Source: Escherichia coli | GTDB taxonomy: Bacteria > Pseudomonadota > Gammaproteobacteria > Enterobacterales > Enterobacteriaceae | DNA: 64,000 nucleotides | Strand: one strand, 5' to 3' | Assembly: GCF_024298765.1 (NCBI RefSeq) | Contig: NZ_CP101210.1 | Part shown: positions 27,001-33,000 of the stretch, in pieces | Layout of the letters: every line of letters starts with the position of its first letter | Position numbering within the stretch: the stretch's first letter is position 1 | Made by a program: the position numbers

Positions 27001-30000
27001 CGGATAAATGCTGTTTATCGCTTCAGGGAAGCCGGTCAGCCCATCCACGCAGGCAATCAGAATGTCTTCAACGCCACGGTTTTGCAGATCACTTAATACT
27101 GACAGCCAGAAGTTAGCGCCTTCGCTTTCCGACAAATACAGGCCCAGGACTTCTTTTTTGCCTTCCAGATTCAGCGCCAGTACGGTATAAACTGCCTTGC
27201 TCTGATAACACCCATCTTCGCGGATTTTATAGTGAATGGCGTCCAGCCAGACGAAGGGATAAACCTTTTCCAGCGGGCGCTGCTGCCACTGTTTTAACTC
27301 AGGAATGACTTTATCGGTAACCGCACTGATGGTAGCCGTGGAAACACTGAAGGCATATAAATCTTCGATCTCCCGGCTGATATCCTGGTAGCTCATCCCC
27401 AGCGCGAACAGGCGAATGATCTTGCGCTCGAGCTCATCAGACAGCGTGGTCTGGTGCTTCTTCACCAGTTGGGGTTCAAAATAACCATTACGATCACGTG
27501 GAGTTGCCAGCTCAAAGCTGCCAGTCGGGGCTTTAATGGTCTTTTTTCCGGAACCATTTTTACGATTGACTTCAAAATCCTGAGCCAGATGGGAGTCGAG
27601 TTCAGCGGCCAGAGCGGTTTCTGTTAACTGTTTGATTAATGGCGTTAGGATACCATCCTTGCCGGTTAATGCTTGGCCGGACTGAACCGCCCCGGAAATC
27701 CTGGAGACTAAACTCCCTGAGAAAGAGGTAAACAGGATGACTAAAAATACTCGTTTTTCCCCCGAAGTCCGTCAACGGGCAGTTCGTATGGTTCTGGAAA
27801 GTCAGGGCGAATATGACTCACAATGGGCGGCAATTTGTTCCATTGCTCCAAAGACTGGCTGTACGCCGGAGACTCTGCGTGTCTGGGTTCGCCAGTATGA
27901 GCGGGATACCGGGGGCGGAGATGGAGGGCTCACCAGTGCTGAACGTCAGCGTCTGAAAGAGCTGGAACGTGAAAATCGTGAACTGCGCCGCAGCAACAAT
28001 ATCCTTCGCCAGGCTTCCGCTTATTTTGCGAAGGCGGAGTTCGACCGCCTCTGGAAAAAGTGATGGCACTGCTGGATAAGCTGCGTGAGCAGTACGGGGT
28101 CAGACCGGTATGCAGTGAACTGCATATTGCCCCGTCAACGTATTACCACTGTCAGCAACAGCGACATCATCCTGATAAACGCAGTGCACATGCACAGCGC
28201 GATGACTGGCTGAAGAGAGAGATACAGCGCGTATACGATGAAAATCATCAGTGTACCGTGTGCGTAAAGTCTGGCGCCAGTTGTTACGGGAAGGAATCAG
28301 GATGGCCAGATGTACAGTGGTGCGCCTCATGGCGGTTATGGGACTTGCCGGTGTTCTCCGGGGTAAAAAGGTCCGCACTACCGTCAGCCGGAAAACCGTT
28401 GCCGCAGGTGACCGCGTAAACCGTCAGTTCGTGGCAGAACGTCCTGACCAGCTGTGGGTGGCTGATTTTACTTACGTCAGCACATGGCAGGGCTTCGTCT
28501 ATAGTGGCGTTCATCATTGATGTATTTGCCGGATATATCGTGGGGTGGTGGGTCTCATCGTCTATGGAAACGACATTCGTGCTGGATGCGCTGGAGCAGG
28601 CGTTGTGGGCCCGCCGTCCGTCCGGCACCATCCATCACAGCGATAAAGGCTCTCAGTATGTGTCACTGGCCTATATGGAGCGATTAAAAGAAGCAAAACT
28701 GCTGGCATCAACAGGGAGTACAGGCGACTCGTATGACAACGCGATGGCGGAGAGCATCAATGGTCTTTACAAAGCGGAGGTAATACACCGTAAGAGCTGG
28801 AAAAACCGTGCAGAAGTGGAACTGGCCACACTCACGTGGGTGGACTGGTATAACAATCGACGATTGCTGGGAAGGCTGGGCCATACTCCTCCGGCAGAAG
28901 CAGAAAAAGCTTATTATGCTTCCATCGGAAACAATGATCTGGCAGCCTGAGTTCACAGATAAAACACTCTCCAGGAAACCCGGGGCGGTTCAGGACTGGA
29001 GTGCCTTAAGCGCTTTATCGAAATCGAAGGGTTGGGACATGTGTCATTCCTTTTTGGTTGTATATTACTGGAATGACACAGAATTTCTAACACTCCCTTT
29101 AATTTAGGTTTATTACTATTATTATACTTACTCTCTTTTTTACATGACCTCAATCTTTACGATTATATTCACTCTATCTTTACACATTCCATTACTCTTA
29201 TCCTCATCCAATTATATTCATGTCCTTCTCTAATCTTCCTTGTCACCATTATCATAATATCCACTTCTTCCCTCATTCAATCATAATTACTGTAATTCAT
29301 ACGTTACTCAGATAAGTTATTCTCTACAGCTACGCTATTGTTGATATCCATCTGTTCTCATTTTCAGTGAAACAGTAATTGATTTTAATTTATCCATCAT
29401 GAACTGTATTTGCTTAACAATGATTGTTTATCTGAAGTGTTTTAACTATTCTGGTTGGAAACAATTTCTCTGTCATCAAAGATTAACTGAATGTTTACTC
29501 TTTGATAAGGTATCCATGGTTCCGTCATGTTTAACAGCGCAGGATAAACAACAGAATTAACAGAGTGAATTTCTGATTATATTTGTTGCCGGTTGTATTG
29601 TTTAAGGTACTGGGTGAAAATTATTCATCCATTGTATGTTGTCTTATGCTATCGTGTGTCGTTAACGTTCATATCCTGGAAAACAGATTGAATAAGCGCG
29701 TGTGAGTTTATTGTGGTGACCTTATAAACGTTTTTTCAGACTCACTGAGAGCAAATTTACAAATCATGAGCTTATAGTTGTAATATGTTTCCTAACCGCC
29801 TGGCAGCGGGATTACAGTTCGTATTTTTCTGTATTTCACTGTGTTGTATTGAATCTGTATTTTCTTCGCACCTCGTTTATCTCATCTCTATAGACAATGC
29901 CATCAGATAACTCATACCCTTCAGCACAACGCTGTGTGTCGTTAATAATCCGTCGTATCCATTCTGTTACAGCATGCCTGATAAATACCATCTGTAAGTT

Positions 30001-33000
30001 ATTACCGTTTTAGATCTGATTATGAGCGAAAGCATTAATTCGCTCACAGAGCTTAAAACATCATTAACTTTCAGGAGTCATCAACATGCCTAAATCTTAC
30101 ACACCAAACTGGTTTTTTACCGCTTTACTTGACAATCACATCAATCAAATGATGGCACGCTATTCCTGCCTGCGGGCCTTACGGATGGATTTCTTCTACA
30201 GGAAGGATACGCCTGATTTCTTACAACCTGATCATCGTTGGCTTGAATTACAACTGCGTATGCTGCTGGAGCAGGTTGAACAGTTTGAAAATATGGTTGG
30301 CTTCTTCTGGGTGATTGAATGGACGGTTGATCATGGTTTTCATGCGCATGTGGTCTTCTGGCTCGATCGTCAGAGGGTTAAAAAAATATATCCCTTTGCG
30401 GAGCGGATTACGGAATGCTGGCGGTCTATTACGCATAACAGCGGTTCGGCACACCGCTGTACATATCAGCCGCATTATACATACAACATCAACATTCCTG
30501 TGCGCCACAACGATCCTGAAAGCATCGATAATATTCGCGGTGCCCTGCATTATCTGGCAAAAGAAGAGCAAAAAGACGGGCTGTGTGCCTACGGCTGCAA
30601 TGAAGTTCCTGAACGTCCTGCTGCAGGGCGTCCTCGTAAGCCTCACTTCTGAAGCTTAAATCCTGAGCTTCCTGTCCTGGAAACATTCCGTCGGTAAAAC
30701 CTTACCGCCTTGCTTAATGATGTGAACTGAAGTCAACGGAGATCATTCACTCTGAACCACATCCGGTGTTCTGTCCCTTGTCGGTGACCTGATCTTCCCG
30801 TTCTGCCCCGGTTCTTCACTTATTCCATCAACCCCATCCGCAAACCATAACACGTCAGCTTATTCACGGGCAGGACGCATTGTGGGCTGCGCATAACGGA
30901 GCATATCTTATGAATGCTATCCCTTATTTCGACTATAGCCTGGCCCCCTTCTGGCCATCTTATCAGAACAAAATCATCGGCGTTCTCAACCGTGTGTTGC
31001 GCGAGCAGTCCTGCTCCCGAATACGGCGGATCCTGCTTCGTCTGCCGGGGGAACATGGCAACATCTTCAGCGACAGAAAAACCTGGTTCGGTATGGCCTT
31101 TATCGAAACCGTCAGTGCGCTGATGAATGCAACACCCGGACGTGACCTCTGCTGGCTCCTGACACGTCATCCTGAAAAACCGGAATACCACGTGGTGCTG
31201 TGCGTCAGACAGGAGTATTTCGACGGCCCTGAACTGGATCGGCTGATTCTGGATGCCTGGAGCAACGTACTGGGCTTCGCATCACCGGGTGAAGCAGCAC
31301 CGTACCAGAAGCAGATCACCCGGGATGTGGTGCTGGACAGTTGTTCACCGGACTGCGAAGAGAGACTCAAAGAGCTGATATGGGCGTTCAGTGATTTCGC
31401 CCGCGATCGTCGTGGTGTGCGCGATCCGGAAGCCCGTTACCTCGCCGGTAATCCCTGGTATCCCGTAGCAGGCCAGCTCTGAAAGCTCAGCTCAGCAGAT
31501 TCACCCGCATTTGCCCAACATTCATAAATCTCACAGAGGACATTCTGACCATGTTGACCTCAATGACAGGTCACGACAGCGTATTGCTGCGTGCCGACGA
31601 TCCCCTGATCGACATGAACTACATCACCAGCTTCACTGGTATGACCGACAAATGGTTTTACAAGCTGATCAGTGAAGGCCATTTCCCTAAACCCATCAAA
31701 CTGGGGCGCAGCAGCCGCTGGTACAAAAGTGAAGTGGAGCAGTGGATGCAGCATCGAATCGAGGCATCACGAGGGGCAGCAGCATGAAACGTGTTGTAAT
31801 GCCGGTACGCTGGCAATGTGCAAAATACCAGCGTTGGTATTGTGGAAATCAGCCCTGTCCCTGGTGCTGGCGACATTTACGTTCATCTTCTTGCAGACAT
31901 TCTCCAGTCAGCCAGCAGGTTGTAGCTCTTCCTGACTGATTCGTCATTCCATTCTTATTGATTATAACTGGCATTACACCGGTGCTGGCGTGCTTTCCTG
32001 CGTGTCTGCACTGGCTTAACAAAATTCAACAGGGTTTGAAAAGGAACATTTCGTGCAAATAACCAAAGCCTTAATTTCAGAGCCGGGAGACATCCGGCGT
32101 TTTGTTCAGCAGGCGGTGGACCACTGGCCAAATCTGTTGGCATTTCACTTCACGCTCTATTCGGCAGAAGGAAACATCAACGGGCAACAGATTCATGCAT
32201 TCTGTACTTCCTTTTACCGACAGGTGCACGAACGTATTACTGAGCGTAATCACACGGCCAGCCCATCCTCGCCGGTGGTATTACGCTGGTTGCGGGAACA
32301 ACATGGAGGAGCAACAATACGATGCCTGTTGCTGTTCAGCCAGGAGCTTTTCTGCCATCCGCGAGCCAGTGTGACAGTTGATGAAGAATGTTCACAACTG
32401 GTGGATTTACTGCAACAGACCTGGTCGGTGATAAGTGCTGGCGGACAATGCCGGGTGGAAAGATGTTTTCAGGTCGTCCGGGGTGATACATCTGGCCAGT
32501 ATGTTGCGTTAAAAACAGTCGCATTGTCTCTGGGGTTACCGGTTGTGATCGCCATTACCCATCGTCCGGTACAGCGCTGTATATTGATTACAGCTCAGTG
32601 AATCAGCGCAGTTGTGCAGTCAACGAGGTTTTCTGGCTTTTCGTCGGTCATTCAGCACCATTAGCCGGGTCTCTGCCTCTTTCTGTTCCTGTGGAGTCAC
32701 TTCCCCGCACGGCTGCCCCTTCAGGTCATAACGGGCGCCGCCAGCCATTAACGCACGGTAATAGCGCGGAGACTGCACATAAGACGCTACTGCCGCGCGT
32801 AATGCACCTGCACCAAACGCCAGTTCTCTGATGGCGATATCCTGTATCAGGTCGTCAGTTATCCCCACTTTAAGCGGTTTTGGTTTTTCCCGGTTGAATA
32901 ACTCAGGCCAGAGTTCCACAAGACGATTTATACGCTTACGGTTTTTGCGCTGGCGTTTTGTCATATGTCGCCATGGTGTTTGATTCCTCACCCGAAGAAG

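What the first reader, a model, noticed from the sequence alone, without database searches (positions are those of the whole stretch)
29100..30085. About 1 kb of gene-free, strand-biased (C/T-rich) sequence upstream of a yagK-like gene
No ORF of 60 aa or more on either strand, strong pyrimidine skew on the plus strand (29100-29340), AT-rich. Long non-coding stretches in compact bacterial genomes are usually regulatory or RNA-coding, or are the remains of a silenced gene.
Basis: seen in the sequence. Interest (0 to 1): 0.35.

Follow-up and report, generated by a model that had tools for sequence, protein, structure and literature searches.

The report
Conserved gene-free leader with Rho-site-like tract
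This 1 kb stretch is real non-coding DNA that travels with a replication-protein-like gene in about 29% of complete E. coli genomes; it is not a dead gene or a known RNA, and is most likely a control region whose G-poor tract stops stray transcription.

Summary
Window 29098-30085 has no ORF over 53 aa, is AT-rich (28-40% GC) and holds the most pyrimidine-rich, G-poorest 200 nt of the 64 kb.

It is a conserved, never-annotated module. 1571 of 5426 complete E. coli genomes carry it, always directly upstream of the 188-aa YagK/YfjJ (Rep-like) gene.

The left edge at 29098 is an insertion site. An IS256-family element (26500-29097, with a nested IS3) split the region, leaving an 8-bp duplication TTTAATTT.

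Anatomy:
- an invariant ~24-bp block;
- a length-variable tract (97-227 nt) whose sequence drifts while its composition stays fixed (G 2-5%, C 25-37%);
- about 560 bp of roughly neutrally evolving AT-rich spacer;
- a highly conserved proximal ~230 bp.

No pseudogene signal, conserved ORF, Rfam match, conserved RNA fold or clear iterons were found.

The tract meets published rut-site criteria in all 15 alleles, is predicted unstructured, and has a conserved core with a 12-nt same-sense match to lambda rutA.

Best reading (inferred, about 0.4): an upstream control and leader region with a Rho-dependent insulator. The main rival is a largely functionless spacer. Interest is modest.

The parts
26474..26499 (+). 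Left part of the conserved distal block (AACTTGTTAAATATCGATGATTTTAATTT). An IS insertion separates it from the rest. The last 8 nt, TTTAATTT, are one copy of the target-site duplication.
   Evidence: Homologous to the sequence directly preceding the tract in plasmid locus L015 and in the intact islands.
26500..29097 (.). Interrupting IS256-family element with imperfect terminal inverted repeats (19 of 25 nt match). It carries a nested, frameshifted IS3-family element (about 27.6-28.99 kb) with an ALIL frameshift pseudoknot at 28018-28134. It is not part of the feature, but it creates the feature's apparent left edge.
   Evidence: The 8-bp direct repeat TTTAATTT flanks it at 26492-26499 and 29098-29105.
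29098..29121 (+). Conserved distal block TTTAATTTAGGTTTATTACTAT(T/A)AT. It is almost invariant in all 15 alleles and marks where unrelated upstream contexts converge.
   Evidence: Alignments. Upstream neighbours differ between loci: YfjI, ireA, a sugar kinase, dsdA, a TIR-domain gene, or IS elements.
29122..29290 (+). G-depleted, C>G tract that is variable in length and sequence and is the predicted Rho-utilisation (rut)-like site. The conserved core CTCTATCTTTACACATTCCATTA lies at 29172-29194 and includes the 12-mer TTACACATTCCA (29180-29191), which is identical to part of lambda rutA.
   Evidence: G is 2-5% and C 25-37% in all alleles, while length ranges 97-227 nt and identity is about 40-54%. 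It meets the RhoTermPredict rut criteria with C/G of 5-43 in 15 of 15 alleles. The + strand folds at about -1 to -1.6 kcal/mol. The lambda match has P of about 0.003 against shuffles. The core is present in 14 of 15 alleles.
29291..29852 (.). AT-rich spacer with no ORF, evolving at roughly the neutral rate as a mosaic of alleles. It contains the same-orientation TATCCAT motifs at 29345, 29391 and 29511; the fourth copy, at 29956, falls in the next segment.
   Evidence: Non-coding divergence K of 0.08-0.20 compares with dS of 0.06-0.22 in the adjacent gene. TATCCAT occurs 4 times against 0.18 expected and is conserved in the alleles. No conserved RNA fold was found.
29853..30085 (+). Highly conserved proximal segment, presumed to be the promoter region and 5' leader of the yagK-like operon. 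It includes the hairpin GAGCGAA-N8-TTCGCTC (30024-30045) and the Shine-Dalgarno sequence AGGAG (30073-30077).
   Evidence: Column conservation is 0.92-0.99, with invariant runs of more than 20 nt. The alifold z-score is -2.4 for 29953-30088 on the + strand. No strong sigma-70 consensus was found.
30086..30652 (+). The 188-aa YagK/YfjJ-type (Rep_ORF2/G2P-like) gene with which the non-coding region is always linked.

Best explanation
The stretch is the non-coding control region of a conserved operon (yagK-like Rep-like gene, a 190-aa gene, an AlpA-type regulator, and UCP030791). That operon belongs to the replication and excision backbone of a family of E. coli genomic islands. The stretch is not a gene and not a decayed gene.

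Shown:
- It is ORF-free.
- It is strictly co-inherited with the downstream gene in about 29% of complete E. coli genomes.
- In this window an IS256-family insertion has split it.
- It has a modular anatomy: an invariant distal block, a tract conserved in composition only, a near-neutral AT-rich spacer, and a strongly conserved proximal 230 bp.

Inferred:
- The proximal segment carries the operon's weak or activator-dependent promoter and its 5' leader.
- When the + strand is transcribed, the G-depleted, unstructured, C>G tract serves as a loading (rut) site for the termination factor Rho.
- Transcription entering from upstream (the yfjI helicase gene in intact islands; ireA, IS elements or other cargo here) would then be terminated before it reaches the excision and replication regulators. 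The tract would act as an insulator or attenuator.
- The AT-rich DNA is also the kind of sequence H-NS silences, but that rests on composition alone.
For: Non-coding status: and the absence of annotation.

Linkage: the coding sequence is in 1572 genomes (1956 places) and the upstream 796 bp is in 1571 genomes (1917 places), 1418 of them at 80% coverage or more.

Five or more unrelated left-hand contexts converge within about 0-60 bp of the same conserved block, and about 170 bp in the dsdA case.

Tract composition is conserved although the sequence is not. C-to-T polymorphism is raised there (0.41 against 0.23 per site, p = 2e-4) while A-to-G is not (0.17; within-tract contrast p = 0.007).

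The published rut definition is at least 78 nt with C/G above 1 and C residues spaced every 11-13 nt (PMC6407284). All 15 alleles meet it, with C/G of 5-43. In that paper only 37 validated K-12 predictions had C/G of 3 or more.

The + strand RNA of the tract has essentially no predicted structure.

The conserved core shares a 12-nt same-sense exact match with the annotated lambda rutA, plus a collinear 10-mer in the tR1 region. P is about 0.003 against shuffles, and the best match in 152 control pieces was 10 nt.

No good sigma-70 promoter is conserved in the 1 kb. That is compatible with transcription arriving from upstream or depending on an activator.
Against: - There is no transcript evidence of any kind, so the orientation and even the existence of transcription across the tract are assumed.
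- The rut criteria have low specificity: RhoTermPredict,930 sites in K-12.
- C is only 25-28% in the window's allele, and the tract is mainly T-rich.
- No consensus pause element lies within 150 nt downstream.
- G-poor composition could persist without selection if new sequence arises by slippage or duplication of G-less units, such as the 9-bp VNTR in L004 and L008.
- One allele (L005) has lost the core and half of the tract.
- About 10% of copies are truncated by IS elements to 110-320 bp upstream, yet the operon's ORFs remain intact.
- Overall divergence is about equal to dS.
- The lambda match was sought after the motif was recognised from memory, so its P value is optimistic.
- The H-NS high-affinity motif is not enriched.
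Confidence: 0.4

Rival explanations
1. Mostly functionless spacer. Only the proximal 200-250 bp (promoter and leader) matters. The rest is slowly eroding leftover DNA, either from a very old lost gene or from AT-rich island filler. The G-poor tract is a slippage-prone simple-sequence region whose composition is kept by its own mutational mechanism.
For: Non-coding divergence (K 0.08-0.20) is about equal to dS of the neighbouring gene (0.06-0.22). Alleles differ by many indels whose lengths are not multiples of three. A 9-bp VNTR expands from 3 to 8 copies between alleles that are 99.6% identical. IS-truncated copies keep intact downstream ORFs. YagK homologues at 50-60% identity in other genera have only 200-330 bp upstream gaps.
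Against: About 90% of the roughly 1900 copies keep the full length, within +/-3%, across alleles about 20% diverged. The distal block and the tract core are conserved far beyond the local background. At least five independent rearrangements of the upstream DNA all stop just short of the block, which is unexpected if everything beyond about 250 bp were dispensable. There is no trace of protein homology.
Confidence: 0.3
2. Cis-acting replication region of the island: an origin, or a nick or loading site. It would be used after excision by the neighbouring DUF3987 helicase/primase (YfjI) and/or the HUH-type Rep-like YagK proteins. This would be analogous to the ori downstream of pri-rep in PICI/SaPI satellites, or to the gene-free intergenic region upstream of gene II in filamentous phages.
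For: In intact islands the region fills the 1.6 kb between the YfjI helicase gene and the Rep-like gene. The neighbours match DNA helicase/primase and replication-initiator families. The region is AT-rich, with a low-stability tract, a 23-nt direct repeat of 2.2 copies, and a same-orientation TATCCAT motif occurring 4-5 times plus one inverted copy flanking the tract. A distant Budvicia homologue also has a 1.3 kb ORF-free upstream gap.
Against: The region persists where yfjI is absent and tracks the yagK-like gene instead. There is no convincing iteron family. DnaA boxes are not enriched. Four homologues at 50-60% identity have short upstream gaps. The tract is hypervariable, which is unlike a protein-specific iteron array. 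No replication of these islands is documented in the papers searched.
Confidence: 0.1
3. An unannotated non-coding RNA gene. One form would be an antisense purine-rich RNA made from a minus-strand promoter near 29476-29448 and running through the tract. Another would be a long structured 5' leader, possibly a partner for the island's ProQ/FinO-family protein.
For: A minus-strand promoter-like site, ATGACA-17-CAGAAT, is conserved in 13 of 15 alleles. A ProQ/FinO-domain gene sits in the same module. A leader hairpin at 30024-30045 tolerates only G-U-compatible changes in most alleles.
Against: No Rfam family matches above chance. The structure conservation index is low and no window has z below -2.4 on either strand. 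GGA (CsrA-type) motifs on the purine-rich strand are not enriched (7 against 5.6 +/- 1.4). No terminator defines a 3' end.
Confidence: 0.08
4. A phase-variable switch. The roughly 280-bp tract, flanked by 14-nt inverted repeats (ATGGATAATTTTAA / TTTAATTTATCCAT), would invert; or its repeat number would tune expression.
For: Inverted repeats flank the tract in diverged intact alleles. A 9-bp repeat differs in copy number between near-identical alleles.
Against: All 15 alleles read have the same orientation. In 735 records the tract aligns collinearly with the rest. The repeats are short and imperfect (86%). No recombinase gene is adjacent in the window.
Confidence: 0.03

Closest known systems
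Bacteriophage lambda tR1 Rho-dependent terminator (rutA/rutB, downstream of cro)
   Same: Both are untranslated, C>G, poorly structured RNA segments upstream of regulatory and replication genes of a mobile element. There is a 12-nt identical same-sense match to annotated rutA (TTACACATTCCA) and a collinear 10-mer.
   Different: The tract has no boxB hairpin and only a partial boxA. It is longer (about 170 nt), T-rich and hypervariable. Neither termination nor antitermination has been shown. The similarity is confined to short words.
Rho (with NusG) and H-NS silencing of horizontally acquired, AT-rich DNA in E. coli (general phenomenon; own knowledge, plus H-NS motif paper PMC2094087)
   Same: An AT-rich island region with C>G untranslated sequence, next to regulators whose accidental expression would trigger excision.
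   Different: No ChIP or bicyclomycin data exist for this locus. The H-NS high-affinity motif is not enriched: 1 hit against 2.2 expected.
Replication origins of phage satellites (ori 3' of pri-rep in SaPI/PICI; ori/crr of P4) and the gene-free intergenic region upstream of gene II in Ff phages
   Same: A gene-free, AT-rich segment lying between a helicase/primase gene and a Rep(G2P)-like gene in an integrase/AlpA-type element.
   Different: There is no clear iteron array and no DnaA boxes. The region is retained without the helicase gene. It is not a family-wide feature of YagK homologues.
Long Rho-sensitive 5' leaders of enterobacterial genes (premature termination in 5' UTRs; PMC7815308 and PMC12691595 are listed but were not read in detail)
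   Same: A long untranslated region preceding an operon, with a rut-like element.
   Different: No transcription start site is known here. If the promoter is proximal, the tract lies upstream of it and would act as an insulator, not a leader attenuator.

Membership tests
Rho-dependent terminator / rut site | At least about 78 nt of C-rich, G-poor RNA (C/G > 1) with C residues spaced every 11-13 nt (PMC6407284) | tested here: met
   C/G is 11.5 in the window and 5-43 across all 15 alleles. The tract is the lowest-G segment of the 64 kb.
Rho-dependent terminator / rut site | Unstructured, ribosome-free nascent RNA | tested here: met
   Mean MFE is -1 to -1.6 kcal/mol for the + strand tract windows. 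No conserved ORF is present.
Rho-dependent terminator / rut site | RNA polymerase pause element within 150 nt downstream (consensus G-11 G-10 Y-1 G+1) | tested here: not met
   No consensus hit in any of the 15 alleles. The alternative criterion, a hairpin pause site, was not evaluated.
Rho-dependent terminator / rut site | The strand is transcribed, and termination is relieved by bicyclomycin or rho/nusG mutation | not testable with these tools
   No expression data are available.
Lambda-type nut site (boxA + boxB) | boxA (CGCTCTTA) followed by a boxB stem-loop | tested here: not met
   Only TTA plus the spacer CACATTCCA are shared. The tract cannot form a hairpin.
Pseudogene / decayed gene | Residual protein homology, or an intact gene at the same position in related islands | tested here: not met
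   Six-frame Pfam search found nothing credible. Fifteen alleles have no shared ORF. PGAP annotates no gene or pseudogene under the listed matches, apart from one 126-bp hypothetical ORF touching the edge of one match.
Known structured RNA family (Rfam 15) | Covariance-model match at or near the gathering score | tested here: not met
   Only chance-level snoRNA and miRNA matches, E of 2-8 and 17-21 bits. Nothing but ALIL, in the neighbouring IS, was found in the wider scan.
Novel structured ncRNA | Conserved secondary structure or covariation across alleles | tested here: inconclusive
   Alifold scan of 12 alleles on both strands: the structure conservation index is mostly 0.0-0.6 and the best z-score is -2.4. 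The allele set is shallow (78-100% identity).
H-NS-silenced AT-rich region | AT-rich relative to the genome | tested here: met
   GC is 28.5-40% against about 50% in the flanks.
H-NS-silenced AT-rich region | High-affinity nucleation motif TCGATAAATT (PMC2094087) | tested here: not met
   One site with 2 or fewer mismatches (29387) against 2.2 expected.
H-NS-silenced AT-rich region | H-NS occupancy in vivo | not testable with these tools
   ChIP is required.
Iteron-type replication origin (P4 / PICI / plasmid-like) | Array of direct repeats (iterons) and/or DnaA boxes next to an AT-rich unwinding region | tested here: not met
   The only tandem repeat is a 23-nt unit of 2.2 copies at 78% identity. 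No repeat family has more than 2 copies. DnaA boxes: 1 against 2.0 expected.
Iteron-type replication origin (P4 / PICI / plasmid-like) | Co-inheritance with its replicase gene | tested here: not met
   The region is present without yfjI in the window and in at least four other contexts. It tracks the yagK-like gene instead.
Invertible promoter switch (fimS-like) | Inverted repeats flanking the segment, with both orientations found among genomes | tested here: not met
   Weak 14-nt inverted repeats exist. Only one orientation is seen in 15 alleles, and 735 records align collinearly.
MITE / insertion sequence | Terminal inverted repeats, a target duplication, and dispersed multicopy distribution | tested here: not met
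   Copy number and location equal those of the yagK-like gene: 1917 places against 1956. No other copy exists in the window.

The most novel reading that the evidence does not exclude
The conserved block together with the G-poor, strand-asymmetric tract is the cis-acting replication site of these islands: an origin, or a nick or loading region. After AlpA-triggered excision it would be used by the HUH-type Rep-like YagK/YfjJ paralogues and the DUF3987 helicase. That would make this widespread E. coli island backbone a self-replicating, rolling-circle-like or satellite-like element.

A related, less radical variant is that the tract is a lambda-tR1-like conditional attenuator, overridden by an island-encoded or helper-phage antiterminator.
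Probability: 0.07. Interest if true: 0.7.

Novelty: new member of a known kind. Interest (0 to 1): 0.3.

Why it matters
The module sits in roughly 29% of complete E. coli genomes, next to cargo such as ireA, the dsd genes, contact-dependent inhibition (cdi) toxins and defence genes. It lies directly in front of the genes presumed to control island excision and replication.

If the tract is a Rho-dependent insulator, it would explain how these islands keep their excision and replication switch silent although cargo and IS elements are repeatedly inserted just upstream.

It would also provide a natural, composition-defined rut element with a lambda-rutA-like core for study. If it proved to be an origin, it would show that these 'pathogenicity islands' can replicate.

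As it stands, this is a well-delimited but ordinary-looking control region with no experimental data.

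Tried and rejected
- Rfam scans: nothing beyond the ALIL pseudoknot in the neighbouring IS3 and chance-level snoRNA or miRNA hits.
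- Conserved RNA structure (RNAalifold windows on both strands with column shuffles): no convincing signal.
- Pseudogene: no conserved ORFs and no credible Pfam match to six-frame translations.
- Sigma-70 promoters (tool scan; position-weight-matrix scans with conservation): no strong conserved + strand promoter. Only a modest conserved minus-strand site at 29476-29448.
- H-NS motif TCGATAAATT: not enriched. My first impression that the AATTTATCCAT sites were H-NS nucleation sites is therefore unsupported.
- CsrA-sponge idea for the purine-rich minus strand: GGA count 7 against 5.6 expected, rejected.
- DnaA boxes: 1 against 2.0 expected, rejected.
- Iterons: only a weak 23-nt unit of 2.2 copies.
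- Shared motifs with other non-coding parts of the window: none.
- Phage collection: no match.
- Species-representative genome collection, searched with the protein: only 3 loci, so the clade is essentially restricted to E. coli.
- Budvicia upstream region: no sequence similarity.
- CRESS-virus-like nonanucleotide (TATTAC) in a stem-loop in the distal block: the stem is not conserved in half of the alleles (read), dropped.
- Literature searches for yagK/yfjJ and for DUF3987 with origin: nothing about this region.

Full report

Yes.
- ORFs: between 29100 and 30085 there is no ORF of 60 aa or more. The longest are 53 aa (+) and 51 aa (-). Two mechanical ORFs that begin in the IS element to the left cross the edge by only 8 and 54 nt.
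- GC content falls to 28.5-40%, against about 50% on both sides.
- Composition of 29100-29340: A 26.6%, C 24.5%, G 5.4%, T 43.6%. The 200-nt pyrimidine maximum of 0.72 is the extreme of the entire 64 kb (mean 0.50, sd 0.05). The G minimum of 0.03 is also the extreme. The two longest G-free runs of the window lie here.
- The skew is therefore better described as G-depletion.
- The gene that follows (30086-30652) is annotated by PGAP as 'YagK/YfjJ domain-containing' or 'inovirus-type Gp2'. It scores just under the Pfam cut-offs for YagK_YfjJ_C and REP_ORF2-G2P.

**2. The left boundary is an insertion scar.**

- The sequence at 26500-29097 is an IS256-family element. Its terminal inverted repeats match at 19 of 25 nt. 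It carries a nested, frameshifted IS3-family element with its ALIL frameshift pseudoknot.
- It is flanked by the 8-bp direct repeat TTTAATTT at 26492-26499 and 29098-29105.
- On IncF plasmids the same ireA cargo runs uninterrupted into '...AAACATGGATATTTTTAATTTATGTTTATTACTAT...'.
- With the IS removed, the gap between ireA and the yagK-like gene is about 1.13 kb. The finding covers its right-hand 988 bp.

**3. Distribution and context.**

- The 1096-bp query found 1595 of 5426 complete E. coli genomes.
- The coding sequence alone is in 1572 genomes (1956 places). The upstream 796 bp is in 1571 genomes (1917 places), and 1418 genomes hold at least 80% of it. The two are effectively inseparable.
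- The coding sequence is 90-100% identical between copies, whereas most upstream copies are only 78-88% identical.
- Every listed match but one had no annotated feature under it. The exception is a 126-bp hypothetical ORF at the edge of one match.
- In intact islands the gene order is: Rep-like gene (243 aa), then YfjI (DUF3987 helicase/primase), then about 1.6 kb non-coding, then YagK-like (188 aa), a 190-aa ORF, an AlpA-type HTH, UCP030791, and a ProQ/FinO gene on the opposite strand. An H-NS paralogue lies nearby.
- In other lineages yfjI is replaced by ireA, a sugar-kinase/pseudouridine cluster, dsdCXA, a TIR-domain gene, or IS elements. In every case homology resumes within about 0-60 bp of the same block, or about 170 bp in the dsdA case. 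The block reads (AAACATGGATAA)TTTTAATTTAGGTTTATTACTAT.
- Outside E. coli the close clade is almost absent: 3 loci among about 100,000 species representatives. Phages give no match and only 12 plasmids do.

**4. Anatomy from 15 alleles.**

(a) Distal block, 29098-29121. It is nearly invariant.

(b) Tract, 29122-29290.
- Only about 40-54% identical between alleles, and 97-227 nt long.
- One lineage has a 9-bp unit, CTCCACCTT, present 3 or 8 times in otherwise 99.6% identical alleles.
- Composition is nevertheless constant: G 2-5%, C 25-37%, T 41-47%.
- Inside it, the core CTC(T/A)(A/G)TC(T/G)TTAC(A/T)(C/T)ATTCCATTA is present in 14 of 15 alleles.

(c) Spacer, 29291-29852.
- It is a mosaic of two or three allele types per segment.
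- Its divergence K of 0.08-0.20 compares with dS of 0.06-0.22 and dN of 0-0.03 in the adjacent gene, so it is roughly neutral overall.
- TATCCAT occurs four times in the region in one orientation, against 0.18 expected: three copies in this spacer and a fourth at 29956 in the proximal segment. It is conserved in the alleles, with one inverted copy on the far side of the tract. This motif is unexplained.

(d) Proximal segment, 29853-30085.
- Column conservation is 0.92-0.99, with invariant runs of more than 20 nt.
- It holds a hairpin at 30024-30045 whose variation is limited to G-U-compatible changes in all but one allele.
- It also holds a Shine-Dalgarno sequence.

**5. What it is not.**

- Not a recognisable pseudogene. 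There is no shared ORF, the indels are not multiples of three, and six-frame translations have no credible Pfam match.
- Not a known RNA.
- Not a detectably structured RNA on either strand.
- Not enriched for CsrA GGA motifs or DnaA boxes, nor for the H-NS high-affinity motif.
- Not a repeat element.
- No inverted orientation was seen.
- No strong sigma-70 promoter is conserved on the + strand.

**6. The tract as a Rho site (inference).**

- Rho loads on at least 70-80 nt of unstructured, untranslated, C-rich and G-poor RNA with spaced cytosines (PMC6407284).
- Every allele passes that paper's rut test, with C/G of 5-43.
- The + strand tract is predicted to be essentially structure-free, at -1 to -1.6 kcal/mol per roughly 100-130 nt.
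- Composition is maintained despite sequence turnover. C-to-T polymorphism is elevated (0.41 against 0.23 per site, p = 2e-4) without a matching rise in A-to-G (0.17; p = 0.007 within the tract).
- The conserved core contains TTACACATTCCA. This is identical, and in the same sense, to part of the annotated lambda rutA (NC_001416 38249-38266). A collinear 10-mer lies further into tR1.
- Such a match arose in 0.27% of dinucleotide shuffles, and the best match in 152 control pieces of the window was 10 nt. The 12-mer is unique in the 64 kb.
- Rho binding is not sequence-specific, so this is supportive resemblance and not proof. I also looked at lambda because I recognised the word, so the P value is optimistic.
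- The natural role would be to stop transcription that enters from the variable upstream cargo, IS elements or yfjI before it reaches the AlpA-type regulator and the Rep-like genes.
- A protein called AlpA is an antiterminator in Pseudomonas (PMC7969949, PMC9371919). Whether the island's AlpA-type protein is related in function was not tested.

**7. Weighing the rivals.**

- The near-neutral rate, the frequent indels, IS-truncated copies with intact ORFs, and short upstream gaps in homologues at 50-60% identity from Enterobacter, Klebsiella, Salmonella and an E. coli paralogue all fit a mostly dispensable spacer.
- Against that stand the length constancy in about 90% of roughly 1900 copies, the invariant distal block and tract core, and the clustering of independent left junctions just outside the block.
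- The origin hypothesis is attractive because of the neighbours: a helicase/primase and HUH-like Rep proteins. I read the motifs HAHVVF and YLAKEE directly from the translation. It also fits a 1.3 kb ORF-free gap in Budvicia.
- But it lacks iterons, and the region does not co-segregate with yfjI.

**8. Verdict.**

This is a real, conserved, unannotated non-coding control region of a common E. coli island backbone, split in this window by an IS insertion.
The regulatory option is the best available.
- The most specific, testable element is a rut-like, lambda-rutA-like tract.
- Confidence in the mechanism is about 0.4, because nothing here measures transcription.
- Novelty is a new member of a known kind, and interest is modest (0.3).

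Noticed in passing
window 26500-29097 (duplication at 26492-26499 and 29098-29105): An IS256-family element with imperfect 25-nt terminal inverted repeats and an 8-bp target duplication, TTTAATTT. It is itself interrupted by a frameshifted IS3-family element. This is a nested insertion that splits the conserved block.
   Followed up: yes
window 28018-28134: An ALIL programmed-frameshift pseudoknot (Rfam RF01497, 117.6 bits) inside the IS3-family transposase, which PGAP marks as frameshifted.
   Followed up: partly
L004:~6150-6200 and L008 (equivalent of window ~29255): The 9-bp unit CTCCACCTT is present 3 times in L004 and 8 times in L008, although the two alleles are otherwise 99.6% identical. 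It is a fast-changing simple-sequence repeat inside the tract.
   Followed up: partly
window 29345, 29391, 29511, 29956 (and ~29620 in other alleles): The heptamer TATCCAT, often preceded by AAAATT or TTTAATT, recurs 4-5 times in one orientation and is conserved between alleles. In intact islands one inverted copy lies just left of the tract. No known binding protein could be assigned; it does not fit DnaA or the H-NS motif statistically.
   Followed up: partly
window 30653-30909: A second non-coding, C>G-skewed gap (257 bp) lies between the yagK-like gene and the next ORF. It has the third-highest C-G excess on the + strand of the window and is 91-93% conserved between alleles.
   Followed up: no
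window 30086-30652, 22043-22774, 30910-31482, 32053-32601: The module holds several small paralogous or related proteins. The 188-aa protein carries HUH-like (HAHVVF) and YxxK-like (YLAKEE) motifs. The 243-aa paralogue passes the Pfam REP_ORF2-G2P and YagK_YfjJ_C cut-offs. No solved structure matches either by sequence.
   Followed up: partly
L015:1494-5310 (plasmid pSTEC2018_607-a) and seven similar plasmids, most typed as conjugative: The ireA receptor gene, followed by the first roughly 310 bp of this non-coding region (block plus tract), is carried on these plasmids and is cut off by ISEc8. The ireA cargo therefore moves together with a piece of the region.
   Followed up: partly
L003:5490-5545, L002:5500-5550 (just 3' of yfjI; not present in the window): The inverted repeat ATGTTCACC...GGGTGAAT lies immediately downstream of the DUF3987 helicase gene. 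It resembles my recollection of the P4 type I iteron TGTTCACC.
   Followed up: no
L011:2652-3982 (Budvicia aquatica): A 37%-identical YagK homologue is also preceded by about 1.3 kb without any ORF of 60 aa or more, at 30-42% GC. It has no G-poor tract and no sequence similarity to the E. coli region.
   Followed up: partly
L012 (a 'Bacillota bacterium' MAG contig) and P0112 (labelled 'Bifidobacterium breve'): Fragments of the E. coli yagK-like gene at 95-100% identity are assigned to Gram-positive taxa. This is probably contamination or mis-binning in the public records.
   Followed up: no
window 32620-33099 (-) and about 34000-34434: A ProQ/FinO-domain protein and an H-NS-family paralogue are encoded in the same island module. 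Both are potential trans-acting partners for a long AT-rich leader.
   Followed up: no
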